A stretch of DNA of 64,000 nt from Labilithrix sp. Lineage in GTDB: Bacteria > Myxococcota_A > Polyangia > Polyangiales > Polyangiaceae. The stretch is taken from contig JAHBWE010000017.1 in NCBI GenBank assembly GCA_019637155.1, positions 1 to 64,000 on the forward strand, written 5' to 3'. Numbering within the stretch: position 1 is the first letter of the stretch; each line of letters begins with the position of its first letter. The notes below the pieces were generated by a model. The model was given only the letters and a program-made list of their open reading frames with translations, was not told where the DNA came from and searched no databases. This document shows, piece by piece, positions 9,264 to 55,903 of the stretch. A program made the position numbers and the translations under genes.

Positions 9264-9860
9264 TCATGGGGCGGTACACGGATCCTCCCGACCGACTGTT
9301 GACCCGTCCGCGACGGCTCCGCTGATGAAGCCTGCCCGAACAGTCTTGCCCCAACGGGCGTGCGAGCCAAAGCGCCGGGCGTACCCGTCGGCGATGTGGA
9401 GCAGTCGCCGTCGCAACCTCGGATCCTCGGACGCGCGGATGATGGCGAGCTGCCAGCTCGTAGGCATTGCGCCATCGAAGTCCCGAAGGCCGATCAACAC
9501 GCGCACCGCCGACACGAACGTCTCGACGTGCCCCTGTGCGTGGGCGCGGTCCGCCGCACGCCGGGTCCACTCCGTGATCCGCTCGTGGTCGCCGAGCGCG
9601 TCGCGGAGCCCCAAGAGTAGAGACCGGACGACGGCCGCAAGATCGAGTGATCGGTGCACCGCCGTGAGGACGTCGGTTACGACGGCCTCGTCAATGTTCT
9701 CCCGAAGAAGGAATGCGAGCGCCCTGGCGGCGGCCTTTCGCGTCCGCTCGTCGAGTCGATGGTCGGCCACATCGCGGAGAACGCGAGCGTAGAGGCTTTC
9801 GAAGGCCGGGTGCTCGAACGCGCTCTCCGGCCCGCGTCGCGCCGATACAGGGGCGCTCAT
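9264..9860 (-). CDS. hypothetical protein
   Basis: Start MSAPVS overlaps stop of upstream gene (ATGA at 9857-9860). Confidence 0.4.
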   Translation of the reverse strand: MSAPVSARRGPESAFEHPAFESLYARVLRDVADHRLDERTRKAAARALAFLLRENIDEAVVTDVLTAVHRSLDLAAVVRSLLLGLRDALGDHERITEWTRRAADRAHAQGHVETFVSAVRVLIGLRDFDGAMPTSWQLAIIRASEDPRLRRRLLHIADGYARRFGSHARWGKTVRAGFISGAVADGSTVGREDPCTAP

Positions 9861-10486
9861 GGATCGACTCGCTTGCACACGGCGCACTGGATCTCGTACT
9901 CCAGCGAACAGTCGGTGCTGTACGCGTTGGCGAGGCGCTCGTCCGAGCGAAGAAGGCGCAACCAGTCAGGCAGCGGCGCGCTCTCTTGCTCCAGCCTCCT
10001 CGCGCAGTGGAACGCGATCAGATGGAGCGGCACGTGCGCGTTCGGCATCTCGTGGGCGGCTCGGACGCCTCGCTCCCATTCCGGACTGAGCGTTGGTTCG
10101 ACACCGTCGAGCCGCACGGCGACGTGCGCGAGCCAGGCGAACGTGGCCCAGTGCTCGCCACGGAGGGCCCGGTCGGCGAGGTTGACCACCCAGTCGACGA
10201 GACGCTTCCAGGTACCGTCGGCGCTACGGCAGCCGCCGCAGCTCCAGACGCCGCGGATGAGGCGCTGCACGGCTTCCGGCGAGTCGAGTACCTTGCGGGC
10301 CGTCGACAGCGTCTCGGCAAGGCGCTGCTCCGTCTCGGGGAGGTGCTCCAGGGCGTGCTCGGCGACGCGCGCCCACGCGATCCTCTGGCCCGGCGTTGTC
10401 GCGGGCGACCGGATCTCGCGGAGGGCCTGCGTGAGCAGGCTGTCGTAGACGGCGACCACGTCGCCGTCGGACCGTTCGGGAACCAT
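9857..10486 (-). CDS. hypothetical protein (209 aa)
   Basis: Varied composition with W/C/H; translationally coupled to downstream gene. Confidence 0.4.
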   Translation of the reverse strand: MVPERSDGDVVAVYDSLLTQALREIRSPATTPGQRIAWARVAEHALEHLPETEQRLAETLSTARKVLDSPEAVQRLIRGVWSCGGCRSADGTWKRLVDWVVNLADRALRGEHWATFAWLAHVAVRLDGVEPTLSPEWERGVRAAHEMPNAHVPLHLIAFHCARRLEQESAPLPDWLRLLRSDERLANAYSTDCSLEYEIQCAVCKRVDP

Positions 10487-51545: not shown

Positions 51546-53156
51546 TCAGGTCATGCTGCCGCGATGGCGCGCGAGGCACGCGTCGCGCGCGCGGACCTGA
51601 TCGGCGAGGAGGGAGCGCGCGTACGCCGCGACCTCCTCCGCGCCGACGAGGAGGCTCCGTCGATGAAGGACCGACGAGAGCGCGCGCGACAGCTCCCGCG
51701 CGGTCGCGTAGCGCGCGGCGGGGTCCTTCGCGAGCGCCTTCATCACGACGCCCTCGAGGTCGCCGGGATAGCCGGCGACGACGGTGCTCGGTCGCGGCGG
51801 CGTGCACTCGAGCACCTGCGAGAGCGTGTCGAGATCGGTCTCGCGGCGGAAGAGGCGGCGCGTCGTGGTGAGCTCCCAGAGGATGACGCCGAGCCCGAAG
51901 ACGTCGGCGCGACGATCGACCCGCTCGCCGCGGACCTGCTCGGGCGACATGTACGGGAGCTTCCCCGCGACCGATCGGCCCGCGCAGCGCGTCCCCTCCA
52001 CCGCGGAGAGCTTCGCGAGCCCGAAGTCGACGACCTTCGTCGCGCCGTCGAACGTCACGAAGACGTTGTGCGGGGTCACGTCACGATGCACGAGCTCGAG
52101 CGGCGCGCCGTCGGGGGACGCGAGCTCGTGCGCGGCGTGGAGGCCCGCCGCGGCGTCGGCGACGATCCGGCAGGCGATCTCCGGCGGCACCGGGCGGCCG
52201 CTCACGCGGACGCTGCGCAGCCACGCGGAGAGCGGCTCGCCGTGGAGGTACTCCATCGCGATCCAGTAGCCGTCGTCTTCCCTTCCGAGCTCGAGGATGC
52301 TCGCGACGTTCGGATGGACGATCGCCGCGGTGAGCCGCGCCTCGTCGAGGAACATCCGCACGAAGTCGTCGTCCTCCTGGAAGTAGGGGTGGAGCTGTTT
52401 GATCGCGGCCCAGCGCTCGAAGCCGCAAGAGCCGGCGAGGCGCGCGAGGTGCACCGTCCCCATGCCGCCGGCGCCGATCTCCTCGAGGAGCCGGTAGCGG
52501 CCGGCGGAGCGCGCGACGGGCGGAGGCATCGCGCCGACGGCGACGAGCTCCGCGTGACGCGCGCGGGAGAAGCTCGGGAGGAACAGGTCGGTCTTCTCGT
52601 CGTCGACGTCGCCGAGCCAGCTCGGTCGCGTCTTCTTGTGCTCCGCCCAGAGCCTCCGCACGCGCGCCACGCGCGGTGAGCTCCCCACCTCCGCCGGCGC
52701 GAGCGCGGCGAACGCGGCGGCGGCCCACGCTTCGTCGACGAGGGCGGCGCTCTCCGGCGTCGCGAGGAGGAGATCGAGGAGGACGAGGACGGAGCGAGCG
52801 GCGCCGCGCTCGTGGGCGCGGCGCGCGACGCGCGCGAGGGCGGCGGCGATGCGGTGGTCGTCGCGGGCGCGAGCGGGGAGCGCGGCGGCGACGACCTCGA
52901 TCGCGGCGGGATCGTCGACGCAGGCGAGGAGCGTCTCGACCGACTCGGCGATCGTGCGCTCCGTCGGCTCGACGTGGGGGAGGAGCGCCGCGACGACCGA
53001 AGCCGCCGCGGCGCGATCGGCCGCGGCCGCGGCTCGTCCTCGCGCCGCGTCGAACGCGGCCCCCAGCGTCGCGGCGGCAAACGTCGCAGGTCGATCTCGC
53101 CAGGCCATGCTCGTAGCACCAGACGGCGGGCCCGTCCGGACCTGACACTTCGCCAC
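51546..53156 (-). CDS. Ser/Thr protein kinase with N-terminal Ala-rich helical domain
   Basis: GAGGMGTVHLA, AIK, HRDVTPHNV, DFG, SPE motifs. Confidence 0.85.
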   Translation of the reverse strand: MAKCQVRTGPPSGATSMAWRDRPATFAAATLGAAFDAARGRAAAAADRAAAASVVAALLPHVEPTERTIAESVETLLACVDDPAAIEVVAAALPARARDDHRIAAALARVARRAHERGAARSVLVLLDLLLATPESAALVDEAWAAAAFAALAPAEVGSSPRVARVRRLWAEHKKTRPSWLGDVDDEKTDLFLPSFSRARHAELVAVGAMPPPVARSAGRYRLLEEIGAGGMGTVHLARLAGSCGFERWAAIKQLHPYFQEDDDFVRMFLDEARLTAAIVHPNVASILELGREDDGYWIAMEYLHGEPLSAWLRSVRVSGRPVPPEIACRIVADAAAGLHAAHELASPDGAPLELVHRDVTPHNVFVTFDGATKVVDFGLAKLSAVEGTRCAGRSVAGKLPYMSPEQVRGERVDRRADVFGLGVILWELTTTRRLFRRETDLDTLSQVLECTPPRPSTVVAGYPGDLEGVVMKALAKDPAARYATARELSRALSSVLHRRSLLVGAEEVAAYARSLLADQVRARDACLARHRGSMT

Positions 53157-53201: not shown

Positions 53202-53909
53202 CTAGACGAACGAGCGGAGCCACCATCCGAGCTCACGGCGCCGCATGAAGCCGGGGAGCTCGCGCCAGGTCTTCCGGGCTTGCCGGCGTGCGTCGGCGGC
53301 GCCCGCTTCGTCGCCGCGTCGAGCGCGGACGCGCGCGAGCATCACGAGCGGCTCGAGGGTGGACGAGTTGAAGGTCGTGCACGTACAGAGCGCCTCCTCG
53401 GCCTGCTCGTGGCGCCCCAGCTTTTCGAGCGCCTTCGCCGCGCCGAGGTACGCCTCGCCGAAGCGCCGGAAGGTGCGCTCGTTCGCCTTCGAGCTCGCGC
53501 TCGAGAACGGCTCGCCCTTGTCGGGATCGATCCCCACCGCCTCGCCGAAGGCGCGCAGCGCGTCTTCTGCCCTGCCCTTCCCGAGCAGCGCGAGCCCGCG
53601 CAGGTAGGCGATCTCCTGATCGCGCGGGGCCTTCGCGCGCGCCTCGTCGAGCCACCGCAGCGCCGAGCCGTGCCAGCGGAGATCGAGGTAGGCCTGCCCG
53701 AGATCGCGCCGCACGGTGACGTTCGCCGCGTTCATCGTCGCCTGGCGCTTCAGCCCCGAGATACGTCCGAGGTTCTTCACGATGACGACGGGATCGGGCA
53801 ACCATCGCCGCACGAGGAAGAACCCCACGACCCCGAGCGCGACGTACGGATTCTGCTGCGCGAACGCCGCGAACAGCATCACTGCATAATACATCCAGTA
53901 GTAGCTCAT
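53202..53909 (-). CDS. TPR-repeat membrane protein
   Basis: N-terminal TM; TPR-like helices. Confidence 0.6.
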   Translation of the reverse strand: MSYYWMYYAVMLFAAFAQQNPYVALGVVGFFLVRRWLPDPVVIVKNLGRISGLKRQATMNAANVTVRRDLGQAYLDLRWHGSALRWLDEARAKAPRDQEIAYLRGLALLGKGRAEDALRAFGEAVGIDPDKGEPFSSASSKANERTFRRFGEAYLGAAKALEKLGRHEQAEEALCTCTTFNSSTLEPLVMLARVRARRGDEAGAADARRQARKTWRELPGFMRRRELGWWLRSFV

Positions 53910-54049
53910 CGCCCGAAGCCGATCGTAGACGCTTTTCCGCTCACGCTTCGGCGTAGCGATCGACGCCCGCCTCGCCCCGCTCGCTATGCCCTCGTCGCGG
54001 GCGCGCCCTCACGCCCACGTGCGCTCGGAGGGCGTACGTGACCGCGGGA

Positions 54050-55035
54050 CCGACCACGCCTCGCACCACACGAGCGGCGTGACCGCGAGACGAGCACCGT
54101 CTCGCGACTCGCGATCGGCATCACCGCAAGACCAACACCACCTCGCGCCTCGCGCCTCGCGATCCGCGCGCCCGCGGGACGAGCACCGCCTCGCGTCTTG
54201 CGGCCTCGCGATCGGCGCGCCCCCGGAACGACGTAGCGAAAGGCAGAGGCCGCCAGCGCCCCTGACCGACGACGTAGCGAAAGGCCGGAGGCCGTGCGAG
54301 GCCCATATCAAACGCTCATGCGTACGAATGCGCCGTTCGGGTTCGGATAGCGAGGGGACCAAACACCACCTCGCACCTCACGCCTCGCGATCGGCGCGAC
54401 CTCGAGGCACCGAGACCGAACACCATCCCGCGACTCGCGATCGGCGCGACCGCGGGGACCAAACACCACCTCGCGACTCGCGATCCACGCGACCGCGCAC
54501 CATCTCGCGTCTCGCGACTCGCGAAGCGCACGACCGCGAGACCGAGCACCATCTCGCGACCCGCGAAGCGCACGACCGCGAGACCGAGCGCCGTCTCGCG
54601 TCTCGCGATCCACGCGACCGCGCACCATCTCGCGTCTCGCGACTCGCGAAGCGCACGACCGCGAGACCGAGCACCATCTCGCGACCCGCGAAGCGCACGA
54701 CCGCGGGACCGAGCGCCGTCTCGCGTCTCGCGAAGCGCACGACCGCGGGACCGAGCGCCGTCTCGCGTCTCGCGACCGCGGGACCGAGCATCGTCTCGCG
54801 TCTCGCGATCCCGACTCGCGACTCGCGCGACCGCGGGGACCGGAGACCGCGAGAGCAAGCACCGACTCGCGTCTCGCGACTCGCGCGACCGCAGGGACCG
54901 GAGACCGCGAGACCGCGAGAGCAAGCACCGACTCGCGACTCGCGACTCGCGCGACCGCGGGGACCGGAGACCGCGAGACCGCGAGAGCAAGCACCGACTC
55001 GCGACTCGCGACTCGCGACTCGCGCGACCGCGCGC
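54050..55035. repeat. ~1-kb non-coding mosaic of nested tandem repeats built on palindromic TCGCGA (CTCGCGACTCGCGA); sub-arrays with ~41/125-bp and ~63-bp periods
   Basis: 125-bp unit repeated at 54481 and 54606; ~41-bp unit about 6x over 54519-54790; ~63-bp unit 3x over 54840-55030; periods not multiples of 3; no A/T-containing stop codons, hence open in all frames. Confidence 0.85.
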
Positions 55036-55180
55036 GTCTCACCACGCGATCTGCCTTGGTGTGAACCTTCCCTGAAAAAATCTGAAACTGGCGCACATGT
55101 TCCCACCTTGCCTTGCATGTGGGGAGGTGGTTGCTACATAGACACTTGTTCGTTTTTATGAATCGATCGGGAGGCGTCAA

Positions 55181-55903
55181 GTGTTCAAAATGACCTCATA
55201 TTTCGTCCTCGCTTCGGTCGTGCTTGGTGCCTTTGCGGCCGCGGGTTGCGCGGCGCCCTCCGAAGAGGAGGAGGACGTCGCGGAGACGTCGGACCAGGCG
55301 CTCACCGGCTGGCAGAACATCGTCAACATCAGCGTGCCCGGCTTCGGCTACGTGAACACGCTCGCGACGCCGCATCGCGCGCTTCGGCCCGTGCGCGGTC
55401 GCTACATGAAGATGTCCTGGCCGGCCGCGTGCAACGCGCAGCTCACGCAGATGTCCCTCTACGGCACGTCGCTCGTCACCGGACAGCGCCTCCCGATCAC
55501 CGCGGTCCTCGTTCGCGGCCCACAGCTCGAGCCCGGCTCCAGGATCGCGTCCTACTACTCGATCAACAACGGCGACGGCGCGACCGTCCGCGAGATCGGC
55601 CTCTTCGGGTTCGTCGGCGGCCCCTGCGAGATCGCGTTCGAGCAGTCCGACTCGCTCAACGGCGGAGGAGGAGGTGGAGGCGGCGGTGGTGGTGGAGGCG
55701 GTGGTGGTGGAGGCGGCGGTGGTGGTGGCAGCAGCGTGATCTCTGGCTACACCTTCTCCGGCTTCACGCAGTGCCGCTCGCTCGCGAACGACATGGCTTG
55801 CCCCGCGATCGCCGACGCCGTTACCGACGCGTGCCTCGATCGCAACGGACGCACGTCGACCTGCTCCGACTGCACCGTCGTCTGCAGCATCCCTGTTCGC
55901 TGA
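55181..55903 (+). CDS. lipoprotein with 24-residue poly-Gly linker
   Basis: Lipobox AAGC; G24 encoded by GGN run 55661-55729; low-GC promoter region upstream. Confidence 0.6.
   Translation: MFKMTSYFVLASVVLGAFAAAGCAAPSEEEEDVAETSDQALTGWQNIVNISVPGFGYVNTLATPHRALRPVRGRYMKMSWPAACNAQLTQMSLYGTSLVTGQRLPITAVLVRGPQLEPGSRIASYYSINNGDGATVREIGLFGFVGGPCEIAFEQSDSLNGGGGGGGGGGGGGGGGGGGGGGGSSVISGYTFSGFTQCRSLANDMACPAIADAVTDACLDRNGRTSTCSDCTVVCSIPVR

What the first reader, a model, noticed from the sequence alone, without database searches (positions are those of the whole stretch)
54050..55035. About 1 kb of nested tandem repeats built on the TCGCGA palindrome in a divergent promoter region
The region between the TPR/Ser-Thr-kinase operon (minus strand) and a poly-Gly lipoprotein gene (plus strand) is filled with CTCGCGA-based repeats. 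A 125-bp unit is duplicated at 54481 and 54606. A ~41-bp subunit (CGCGAAGCGCACGACCGCGAGACCGAGC.CC.TCTCGCG) occurs about 6 times, and a ~63-bp unit occurs 3 times at 54840-55030. There are further short direct repeats at 54060-54480, including CTCGCGATCGGCGCG x3 and ACCAAACACCACCTCGCG x3. The periods are not multiples of 3 and the tract is nearly stop-codon-free in all frames, so the long ORFs in the track are artefacts. The array could be a set of binding sites for a palindrome-recognising regulator, an iteron/centromere-like site or a repeat-expansion hotspot. It is not CRISPR-like.
Basis: seen in the sequence. Interest (0 to 1): 0.7.

Follow-up and report, generated by a model that had tools for sequence, protein, structure and literature searches.

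The report
Orphan intergenic minisatellite of TCGCGA heptads
A real, non-coding tandem-repeat array of about 1 kb sits between two divergently transcribed genes of an uncultured Labilithrix myxobacterium; it looks like a recently expanded, lineage-specific minisatellite, and nothing I could test shows that it is a regulatory or centromere-like site.

Summary
The repeats are real and far beyond chance. About 18-19 head-to-tail units occupy 54037-55026, all in one orientation. Each unit has an inverted heptad (ACCGCGRGAC), an 8-9 nt spacer, 2-4 contiguous NCTCGCG heptads and a 7-8 nt linker. The units are nested in a 125-bp three-unit repeat (two copies, 124/125 identical) and a 66-bp variant (about 3 copies).

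No frame shows the GC3 signal of the flanking genes. Neither long ORF has a homologue among billions of proteins, and Rfam finds nothing.

The composite unit occurs 5 times in the array. Everywhere else it occurs only as single, chance-level hits: 185,579 species genomes, the metagenome collection and IMG/VR. A profile of the units finds no copy elsewhere in the 64-kb window. Homologues of both flanking genes in relatives lie in other contexts with no array. The lipoprotein family's conserved promoter block lies downstream of the array and is intact. The adjacent gene's poly-Gly tract is also expanded (23 Gly against 6-9).

Best reading: a lineage-specific minisatellite grown by slippage and unequal recombination, helped by the self-complementary TCGCGA core. 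A protein-binding array is not excluded, but nothing I tested supports it. Interest is low to moderate.

The parts
54037..54231 (+). Left block: four diverged units (41, 41, 48, 49 bp) plus the start of a fifth. Pattern: ACCGCGRGAC, 7-8 nt, 1-3 x NCTCGCG, A, 7-8 nt.
   Evidence: Unit identities are 61-83%. nhmmer hits at 54083-54120, 54125-54161 and 54172-54218.
54228..54352 (+). Segment without heptads that interrupts the array. It carries its own duplication, ACGACGTAGCGAAAGGC at 54228-54244 and 54269-54285, with the same 41-bp spacing.
   Evidence: family D8. Neither strand folds better than shuffles (z +1.29 and +0.30). No Rfam match.
54353..54491 (+). Three older units of the right block (46, 50, 43 bp), with a CAAACACCA-type spacer.
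   Evidence: 60-83% identity to other units.
54492..54741 (+). Two copies of a 125-bp higher-order repeat, each made of three units (41+42+42 bp). In the 54481/54606 register the copies are 124/125 identical. Two of the three unit pairs are 100% identical and the third is 88%.
   Evidence: period 125, score 542; 99.2%.
54742..54829 (+). Transitional units of 33 and 55 bp. One lacks its linker and the other has gained extra heptads.
   Evidence: (period 33 x 2.1).
54830..55026 (+). Variant with a 66-bp period: units of 58, 66 and 73 bp. The left arm is duplicated (GAGACCGCGAGACCGCGAGAG) and there are 3, 3 and 4 contiguous ACTCGCG heptads.
   Evidence: period 66, 96% matches; 97% between 54843 and 54909; 86-89%.
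55093..55165 (+). Promoter/leader block conserved in the lipoprotein gene family (GCGCACAnG..CCCA..CTTGCATG..GGTTGCTACATAGAnAC..CGTTT). It lies downstream of the array and is not repeated.
   Evidence: Alignments with the upstream regions of homologues in L071 and L120. Calling it a promoter (-35 TTGCAT, TG-extended -10 TACATA) is inference.
55181..55903 (+). Flanking gene: a lipoprotein-like protein (signal peptide followed by Cys) with no Pfam family. It has 23 consecutive Gly, against runs of 6-9 Gly in five homologues.
   Evidence: GC3 0.84.
53202..53909 (-). Flanking gene: a TPR protein (identical to KIT84_19910 of a Labilithrix sp. MAG). It is the first gene of the divergent - strand pair.
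   Evidence: GC3 0.90.
51546..53156 (-). Ser/Thr protein kinase gene downstream of the TPR gene on the same strand.
   Evidence: Pkinase, E 8.9e-31.

Best explanation
This is a lineage-specific, non-coding, hierarchically nested minisatellite, like a bacterial VNTR. It grew in place in the 1.27-kb spacer between the TPR/kinase genes and the lipoprotein gene.

Shown: about 18-19 direct units share one plan, namely an inverted heptad CGCGAGA, a spacer, 2-4 direct heptads NCTCGCG and a linker. The units show three tiers of age: old units at 60-83% identity, a 66-bp variant at 86-97%, and a 125-bp three-unit block duplicated with a single difference. No frame carries a coding signal. No counterpart exists in the other genomes, metagenomes, viral contigs, plasmids or phages searched.

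Inferred mechanism: the TCGCGA core is self-complementary, so any two heptads can mispair in register or as a hairpin. Slipped-strand mispairing would then change heptad number (2-4 per unit). Template switching or unequal recombination between units would duplicate whole units (41-50 bp) and blocks of units (125 and 66 bp).

The likely consequence is structural rather than sequence-specific. The array holds the two divergent promoters about 1 kb apart and should vary in copy number within the population.
For: 1. Repeat anatomy and significance.
2. Age tiers: 124/125 identity for the 125-bp block and 97% for the 66-bp unit; unit identity matrix.
3. Non-coding: GC at codon positions is about 0.70/0.70/0.70 in every frame, against GC3 of 0.84-0.92 in the flanking genes. 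The 391-aa + strand ORF has no hit among 5.8 billion proteins. The 290-aa - strand ORF has no hit among 1.84 billion representatives.
4. Orphan status: the composite pattern gives only singletons in unrelated high-GC taxa, in genome contigs (40 loci), metagenome contigs (42) and viral contigs (2). None of these loci has a heptad cluster (the densest, L018, has no array by TRF). No BLAST match in plasmids or phages. The nhmmer unit profile gives 17 significant hits, all in the array.
5. No conservation: TPR homologues at 74-79% identity have other genes directly upstream. The 69% lipoprotein homologue has a 227-bp upstream region with no tandem repeat.
6. The lipoprotein family's conserved promoter block lies downstream of the array and is intact.
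7. Other signs of slippage or duplication in this genome: poly-Gly of 23 against 6-9, and a second recent intergenic tandem duplication at 35955-36097.
Against: 1. Copy-number variation, the defining behaviour of a VNTR, could not be observed because no second strain or read set was available.
2. The rest of the source genome could not be searched, so the array might be one cluster of a genome-wide family.
3. The heptad/palindrome core is kept even in the oldest units and all units point the same way. Selection for binding would produce that pattern, but so would concerted evolution.
4. An array of about 1 kb is large for a bacterial intergenic minisatellite.
Confidence: 0.6

Rival explanations
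1. The array is a set of protein-binding sites. Runs of 2-4 contiguous heptads, each carrying the TCGCGA palindrome, would be bound cooperatively by a small dimeric protein. This would resemble ribbon-helix-helix proteins on tandem boxes. The roughly 19 clusters would form an extended nucleoprotein complex that regulates or insulates the two divergent promoters, or titrates the protein.
For: The heptad core is the best-kept part of all units, including the oldest ones. The array has a strict single orientation and lies between divergent genes. Contiguous heptads in direct and inverted orientation are what the pSM19035 omega/ParB protein binds (PMC9499535). The 41-42 bp unit length is close to four helical turns, although phasing is weak: R = 0.48 at 10.5 bp, and the units are not independent of one another.
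Against: None of the 18 neighbouring proteins scanned between 34 and 64 kb has a recognisable DNA-binding, partition or replication domain; 5 of them had no Pfam match. Nothing similar lies upstream of homologues of either flanking gene. No comparable array was found in any collection searched. The lipoprotein family's conserved promoter block is outside the array. Recent duplication and homogenisation are enough to explain conservation of the core.
Confidence: 0.17
2. The array is a local cluster of a REP/BIME- or MITE-like dispersed palindromic family that is specific to this genome.
For: Each unit holds an imperfect inverted repeat, CGCGAGAC..GTCTCGCG. Some units fold better than shuffles as single strands (z -2.4 to -2.9). 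The remainder of the source genome could not be searched.
Against: There is no solitary copy anywhere else in the 64-kb window by profile search or by motif search. Only chance-level singletons occur in the 185,579 species representative genomes searched and in metagenomes. The hairpin is degraded in many units (z +0.53 and -0.14).
Confidence: 0.1
3. The tract is transcribed as a long 5' leader of the TPR/kinase genes or as a non-coding RNA, and it acts through RNA structure built from the self-complementary heptads.
For: The - strand of 54480-54780 folds somewhat better than shuffles, with centroid equal to the minimum-free-energy structure (z -2.44, 1 of 100 shuffles). A-to-G changes in the left arm (CGCGAGAC to CGCGGGAC) would keep G-U pairing in + strand RNA.
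Against: No Rfam family matches. The + strand z is only -1.53 and the ensemble is diffuse. Any sequence full of a palindromic hexamer will fold. No sigma-70-like promoter was detected in the spacer. The tract is not conserved in relatives.
Confidence: 0.05
4. The array is an assembly artefact, or its copy number is wrong in a metagenome-assembled genome.
For: The source is a MAG. Blocks that are 99% identical are hard to assemble from short reads.
Against: The units are diverged enough to be placed uniquely over most of the array. The contig is 2.5 Mb, which suggests long-read data; that is my inference. Assemblers usually collapse tandem repeats rather than create nested, diverged ones.
Confidence: 0.04
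5. The tract encodes a low-complexity repeat protein.
For: Long ORFs exist: 391 aa on the + strand and 224-290 aa on the - strand. The main periods, 42 and 66, are multiples of 3.
Against: No frame shows a GC3 signal. Unit lengths of 41, 42, 43, 46, 49 and 50 bp shift the frame repeatedly. The shortage of stops follows from 9% T. Neither strand's ORF has a homologue.
Confidence: 0.02

Closest known systems
Bacterial intergenic minisatellites / VNTR loci, e.g. mycobacterial interspersed repetitive units (MIRU-VNTR). The description of MIRUs is from my own knowledge of Supply et al. 1997/2000 and was not checked here.
   Same: Head-to-tail units of 40-100 bp, in a high-GC genome, in an intergenic position, all in one orientation, with unit variants and evidence of recent gain of copies.
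   Different: MIRUs occur at about 40 loci per genome and often carry short ORFs that overlap the neighbouring genes' stop and start codons. This array is the only copy seen, has no ORF logic, is internally nested (7-bp heptads inside 41-50-bp units inside 66- and 125-bp blocks) and reaches about 1 kb. Copy-number polymorphism could not be tested.
REP/BIME-type dispersed palindromic elements
   Same: GC-rich imperfect palindromes, sometimes clustered in tandem in intergenic regions.
   Different: The defining dispersal was not found, either in the 64-kb window or in any other genome searched. The palindrome is only part of each unit and has decayed in many units.
Heptad-repeat parS/operator sites of plasmid pSM19035, bound by the ribbon-helix-helix protein omega (PMC9499535)
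   Same: Contiguous 7-bp boxes without gaps, in both direct and inverted orientation.
   Different: pSM19035 parS has seven contiguous heptads in the native arrangement tested, needs at least four contiguous repeats for full activity, and works with ParA and ParB on a plasmid. Here most runs are 2-3 heptads, with a maximum of 4. The heptad sequence differs, the context is chromosomal, and no Par or ribbon-helix-helix gene is nearby.
Tandem palindromic operator boxes such as MetJ met-boxes (own knowledge; not tested here)
   Same: Short palindromic boxes repeated 2-5 times in immediate tandem.
   Different: Those operators overlap a promoter and are conserved across a regulon. Here about 19 clusters lie upstream of the conserved promoter block and have no counterpart in relatives.
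CRISPR arrays
   Same: Direct repeats containing a short palindrome, at roughly regular spacing, in a non-coding region.
   Different: There are no unique spacers, because the sequence between heptad clusters is itself repeated. Unit length is irregular, and no cas gene was found among the neighbours scanned.
Higher-order repeat organisation of eukaryotic satellites (a structural analogy only)
   Same: Diverged monomers are grouped into multi-monomer blocks, and the blocks themselves are nearly identical.
   Different: The scale is about 1 kb rather than megabases, and the context is bacterial and intergenic.

Membership tests
Bacterial minisatellite / VNTR | Head-to-tail tandem copies of a 10-100 bp unit, beyond chance | tested here: met
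   TRF periods 41-50, 66 and 125; 18-19 units segmented; motif counts 12, 22, 5 and 7 against 0-1 expected.
Bacterial minisatellite / VNTR | Non-coding, or at least not constrained as a protein | tested here: met
   GC by codon position is flat. Neither strand's ORF has a protein homologue.
Bacterial minisatellite / VNTR | Copy number varies between strains or within the population | not testable with these tools
   No second genome of this lineage is available: the nearest TPR homologue is 79% identical and not syntenic, and there are no reads. Indirect support comes from a 124/125-identical duplication and a variable heptad number per unit.
MIRU-type / REP-type dispersed family | Many copies at different intergenic loci of the same genome | tested here: inconclusive
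   No copies outside the array in the 64-kb window, and only chance singletons in other genomes. The rest of the source MAG could not be searched.
REP/BIME | Stable imperfect palindrome in each element | tested here: inconclusive
   An 8-bp stem, CGCGAGAC/GTCTCGCG, is present in some units (z -2.4 to -2.9). It is degraded in others (z +0.53 and -0.14).
CRISPR | Identical repeats separated by unique spacers of similar length | tested here: not met
   The inter-heptad sequences are themselves repeated (families D1-D7). Unit lengths range from 33 to 73 bp.
CRISPR | Associated cas genes | tested here: not met
   Pfam scans of 18 neighbouring proteins between 34 and 64 kb found no Cas domain.
Iteron origin / plasmid replicon | An adjacent Rep initiator gene, in a plasmid or integrated-element context | tested here: not met
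   The neighbours are a kinase, a TPR protein, a lipoprotein, a beta-helix protein, a lysozyme-like protein, a hydrolase and a radical-SAM protein, among others. There is no match in 72,556 plasmids or 50,697 phages.
Heptad parS (pSM19035 type) | At least 4 contiguous heptads without a gap (PMC9499535) | tested here: inconclusive
   Two units hold 4 CTCGCG heptads: a contiguous run at 54998-55025, and 54795-54828, which is split by a 6-nt gap. All other runs hold 2-3 heptads.
Heptad parS (pSM19035 type) | Cognate ParA ATPase and ribbon-helix-helix ParB genes nearby | tested here: not met
   None found among the neighbours scanned.
Known structured RNA (Rfam) | A match to a curated covariance model at its gathering score | tested here: not met
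   There are only two hits, both below threshold (23.3 bits against 62, and 17.4 against 40).

The most novel reading that the evidence does not exclude
The array is a functional chromosomal scaffold. About 19 clusters of contiguous TCGCGA-containing heptads would be coated by a so-far-unidentified small DNA-binding protein, binding in a ribbon-helix-helix-like manner. The resulting extended nucleoprotein filament would insulate or co-regulate the divergent kinase and lipoprotein promoters, or act as a titration sink. That would be a new kind of heptad operator array in Myxococcota.
Probability: 0.1. Interest if true: 0.6.

Novelty: new member of a known kind. Interest (0 to 1): 0.25.

Why it matters
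If the main reading is right, the finding is mostly useful for bookkeeping. The long ORFs across 53986-55180 should not be annotated as genes. The locus is a likely breakpoint or collapse point in assemblies, and it could serve as a strain-typing (VNTR) marker for this Labilithrix lineage. It is also a clean small example of higher-order repeat evolution, with heptads nested in units nested in blocks. It shows how a self-complementary hexamer can seed runaway slippage in a high-GC bacterium. It would bear on myxobacterial gene regulation only if a specific binding protein were found.

Tried and rejected
1. Coding repeat protein. Rejected: GC is flat across codon positions, and neither the 391-aa + strand ORF nor the 290-aa - strand ORF has a homologue.
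2. Known RNA family. Rfam at E <= 1 gave two sub-threshold hits. Folding gave only weak z-scores: -1.5 and -2.4 for the array, and +1.3 and +0.3 for the heptad-free insert.
3. Promoter and terminator scan. It found no sigma-70-like site in the spacer and only 2 terminator-like hits against 0.8 expected, neither of them in a repeat unit. I also looked by eye for a sigma-54 promoter near 55090-55120. The GG element is not conserved in L071, so I dropped the idea.
4. Comparative genomics through both flanking genes. Exact look-ups of the window's own proteins failed. Homologues of the TPR protein (L001-L006, L119) and of the lipoprotein (L071-L076, L120) are not syntenic and carry no array.
5. 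Dispersed family in public data. Pattern scans of genome contigs, metagenome contigs and viral contigs gave only chance-level singletons (screened). L018 looked rich in heptads, but it has no array.
6. Plasmid or phage origin. BLAST in distant mode found no match.
7. Helical phasing of heptad clusters. It is weak and confounded by the tandem duplication itself.
8. Literature. Searches for a TCGCGA-binding regulator and for myxobacterial minisatellites returned nothing relevant.
9. Terminal inverted repeats of a mobile element. The only pair found is 32 nt long, 72% complementary and made of the heptads themselves.

Full report
**1. Observation**

The 1,271-bp spacer between the TPR gene (53202-53909, - strand) and the lipoprotein gene (55181-55903, + strand) is largely filled with direct repeats. 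Tandem Repeats Finder reports the following:
- period 42 x 8.7 and period 125 x 2.9 at 54411-54775;
- period 66 x 2.8-3.3 at 54812-55017;
- periods 41, 48 and 49 at 54071-54231;
- many 7-bp runs.

Motif counts are far above dinucleotide-preserving shuffles. They are 12 against 0.06, 22 against 1.09, 5 against 0 and 7 against 0. All these matches lie inside the array. All are on the + strand, apart from one palindromic match that one search also reports on the - strand. In the region 54040-55040, the + strand carries 39 CTCGCG against 9 CGCGAG, and the region holds 25 of the window's 127 TCGCGA sites.

Five details need correcting:
- the right-hand unit has period 66, not 63;
- one of the quoted short repeats occurs 1-2 times, not 3;
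- the 41-bp regex matches 3 times exactly and 5 times with up to 3 mismatches, not about 6;
- the main periods 42, 48 and 66 are multiples of 3;
- the shortage of stop codons follows from 9% T, with about 5 stops expected per frame and 0-3 seen.

**2. Anatomy**

Segmentation gives 18 units plus one interrupted unit. They share a single plan:
- ACCGCGRGAC, which contains CGCGAGA, the reverse complement of the heptad TCTCGCG;
- an 8-9 nt spacer (CGAGCACC or CAAACACCA);
- 2-4 contiguous NCTCGCG heptads, usually ending in the TCGCGA palindrome;
- a 7-8 nt linker (TCGGCGCG, TCCACGCG or AGCGCACG).

The unit identity matrix shows three tiers (block identities):
- old units at 54041-54491, 60-83% identical to one another;
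- a three-unit, 125-bp block present twice at 54492-54741, 124/125 identical in the 54481/54606 register;
- a 58/66/73-bp variant family at 54830-55026, 86-97% identical, with a duplicated left arm and 3-4 heptads.

A heptad-free segment at 54228-54352 splits the array. It contains its own 17-bp duplication with the same 41-bp spacing.

**3. The tract is not a gene and not a known RNA**

GC at the three codon positions is about 0.70/0.70/0.70 in every frame across the tract. The flanking genes have GC3 of 0.84-0.92. The 391-aa + strand ORF has no hit at E <= 0.001 among 5.8 billion proteins. The 290-aa - strand ORF has none among 1.84 billion representatives. Rfam gives only two sub-threshold hits.

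Folding energies exceed shuffles only modestly. For the array, z is -1.5 on the + strand and -2.4 on the - strand. Single units range from -2.9 to +0.5. That is expected of any sequence full of a self-complementary hexamer. The heptad-free insert does not fold better than shuffles. No sigma-70-like promoter consensus was found in the spacer.

**4. Source and context**

The TPR protein is identical to KIT84_19910 of a Labilithrix sp. MAG, on a 2.5-Mb contig. Pfam scans describe the neighbours:
- a Ser/Thr kinase and the TPR protein on the - strand;
- a family-less lipoprotein and a beta-helix protein on the + strand;
- further out, a lysozyme-like protein, a hydrolase, a TrkA-domain protein, a histidine kinase and a radical-SAM/SPASM protein, among others.

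None of the 18 proteins scanned between 34 and 64 kb shows a Rep, Par, ribbon-helix-helix or Cas domain, or any other recognisable DNA-binding domain; 5 of them had no Pfam match.

**5. Relatives**

Exact look-ups of the window's own proteins returned nothing, so the rest of the source genome could not be read.

TPR homologues at 74-79% identity (L001-L006 and L119) have unrelated genes directly upstream, and the neighbouring genes differ between these relatives.

The best lipoprotein homologue (P0121, 69% identity, locus L071) has a 227-bp upstream region. The whole 20-kb locus contains no tandem repeat.

Alignment of the window with L071 and L120 shows a conserved block just upstream of the start codon: GCGCACAnG..CCCA..CTTGCATG..GGTTGCTACATAGAnAC..CGTTT, at window 55093-55165. 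I read this as the promoter and leader of the gene family; that is inference. It lies about 60 bp downstream of the last repeat and is intact. The array is therefore an addition upstream of a pre-existing promoter, not part of it.

**6. Is it a dispersed family?**

- A profile HMM of 15 units gives 17 significant hits, all in the array on the + strand, and none elsewhere in the 64-kb window.
- The composite-unit pattern matches 5 times in the array. It matches 40 loci in 185,579 species-representative genomes, 42 loci in the metagenome collection and 2 in IMG/VR.
- Every one of those loci has a single match, and the named genome records are from unrelated high-GC taxa. None has a local cluster of heptads. 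The densest candidate, L018, has no array.
- BLAST in distant mode finds nothing in 72,556 plasmids or 50,697 phages.

The array has no counterpart in any collection I could reach. The one remaining gap is the remainder of the source MAG.

**7. Mechanism**

The data fit growth in place by slippage and unequal recombination:
- three nested periodicities;
- a gradient of unit ages ending in a duplication with one difference in 125 bp;
- a heptad number that varies from unit to unit;
- units that have lost or gained sub-parts, such as the 33-bp unit without a linker and the 66-bp unit with a doubled arm.

The TCGCGA core is self-complementary, so heptads can mispair both in register and as hairpins. 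That is a plausible driver, but it is inferred.

Two independent observations suggest that this lineage or locus is prone to such events. The adjacent gene's poly-Gly tract has 23 residues against 6-9 in five homologues. A second divergent spacer carries a 58-bp x 2.5 duplication with 98% matches.

I give this reading a probability of about 0.6.

**8. Rivals**

- Protein-binding array (about 0.17). The best-kept element is a palindrome-bearing heptad in contiguous runs. That arrangement recalls the heptad sites of the pSM19035 omega protein (PMC9499535) and tandem palindromic operators. However, there is no cognate gene nearby and no conservation. The family's conserved promoter block lies outside the array. 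Recent duplication and homogenisation are enough to explain conservation of the core. Helical phasing is weak and confounded by the duplication.
- Genome-specific REP/MIRU-like family (about 0.1). This can be settled only with the full MAG.
- Structured RNA (about 0.05), assembly artefact (about 0.04) and repeat protein (about 0.02). These are unlikely for the reasons given in sections 3 and 4.

**9. Comparison with known kinds, and verdict**

The array behaves like a bacterial intergenic minisatellite. MIRU-VNTR loci are the closest analogue, a comparison from my own knowledge. It differs from them in being a single locus as far as could be tested, in its nested heptad/unit/block structure, and in its size of about 1 kb.

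It fails the defining tests for the other kinds considered:
- CRISPR: no unique spacers and no cas genes;
- iteron origin: no Rep gene and no plasmid context;
- pSM19035-type parS: most runs are shorter than 4 heptads, and there are no Par genes.

I file it as a new member of a known kind. It is a real feature and worth flagging for annotation and assembly, but it would not surprise a specialist. Interest is 0.25.

The most novel reading still open is a functional heptad-operator scaffold. It has a probability of about 0.1 and would deserve an interest of about 0.6 if true.

Noticed in passing
window 35955-36097 (spacer 35674-36172): A second recent tandem duplication, a 58-bp unit x 2.5 with 98% matches. 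It sits in another divergent intergenic region, between an AMP-binding enzyme gene (- strand) and an ASH/Ig-like protein gene (+ strand). An unusually AT-rich tract follows, caatttatttaaaattaaataaattcg near 36147-36173, in a genome of about 72% GC.
   Followed up: partly
window 55661-55729 (inside the lipoprotein gene 55181-55903): A (GGN)n tract encodes 23 consecutive glycines. Five homologues (57-69% identity) have runs of only 6-9 Gly, two of them continuing as a Gly/Ser mix, so the coding repeat next to the array is also expanded.
   Followed up: yes
window 55093-55165; L071 about 9900-9975; L120 about 250-320: A non-coding block is conserved upstream of the lipoprotein gene family: GCGCACAnG..CCCA..CTTGCATG..GGTTGCTACATAGAnAC..CGTTT. 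It is probably a promoter with a TG-extended -10 element, plus an upstream operator-like element, CACATGTTCCCAC.
   Followed up: partly
L071 about 9850-9880, compared with window units such as 54747-54760: In L071, the hairpin upstream of the lipoprotein homologue (GGGGAACGAGCGCCGATGCTCGTTCCCC) shares 13 of 14 bases with the array unit's GGGACCGAGCGCCG. It could be the seed of the array or a chance match.
   Followed up: no
L063 6187-6252 (IMG/VR contig IMGVR_UViG_3300042691_018263): A viral contig whose displayed end region is AT-rich ends in at least 9 perfect copies of TCTCGCG, the same heptad as in the array. GGTTCGC repeats precede them, upstream of a divergent gene. This may be an origin or operator array, and it may be where the assembly broke.
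   Followed up: partly
L065 1-44, 635-672, 5450-5481, 7408-7468 (IMG/VR contig IMGVR_UViG_3300019487_000198): A viral contig carries several separate heptad (or 14-bp) tandem arrays: GAGGCGT x 6.3, GTGAGGCGTGAGGG x 2.8, CGTGAGGCGAGAGG x 2.3 and AGGCGCG x 8.7. Their nature is unknown.
   Followed up: no
window 53202-53909 compared with L001, L005 and L119: The 235-aa TPR protein is well conserved (60-79% identity) across many Polyangia/Labilithrix MAGs, but its gene neighbours differ in each relative examined. It appears to be a conserved gene in a very fluid context.
   Followed up: partly
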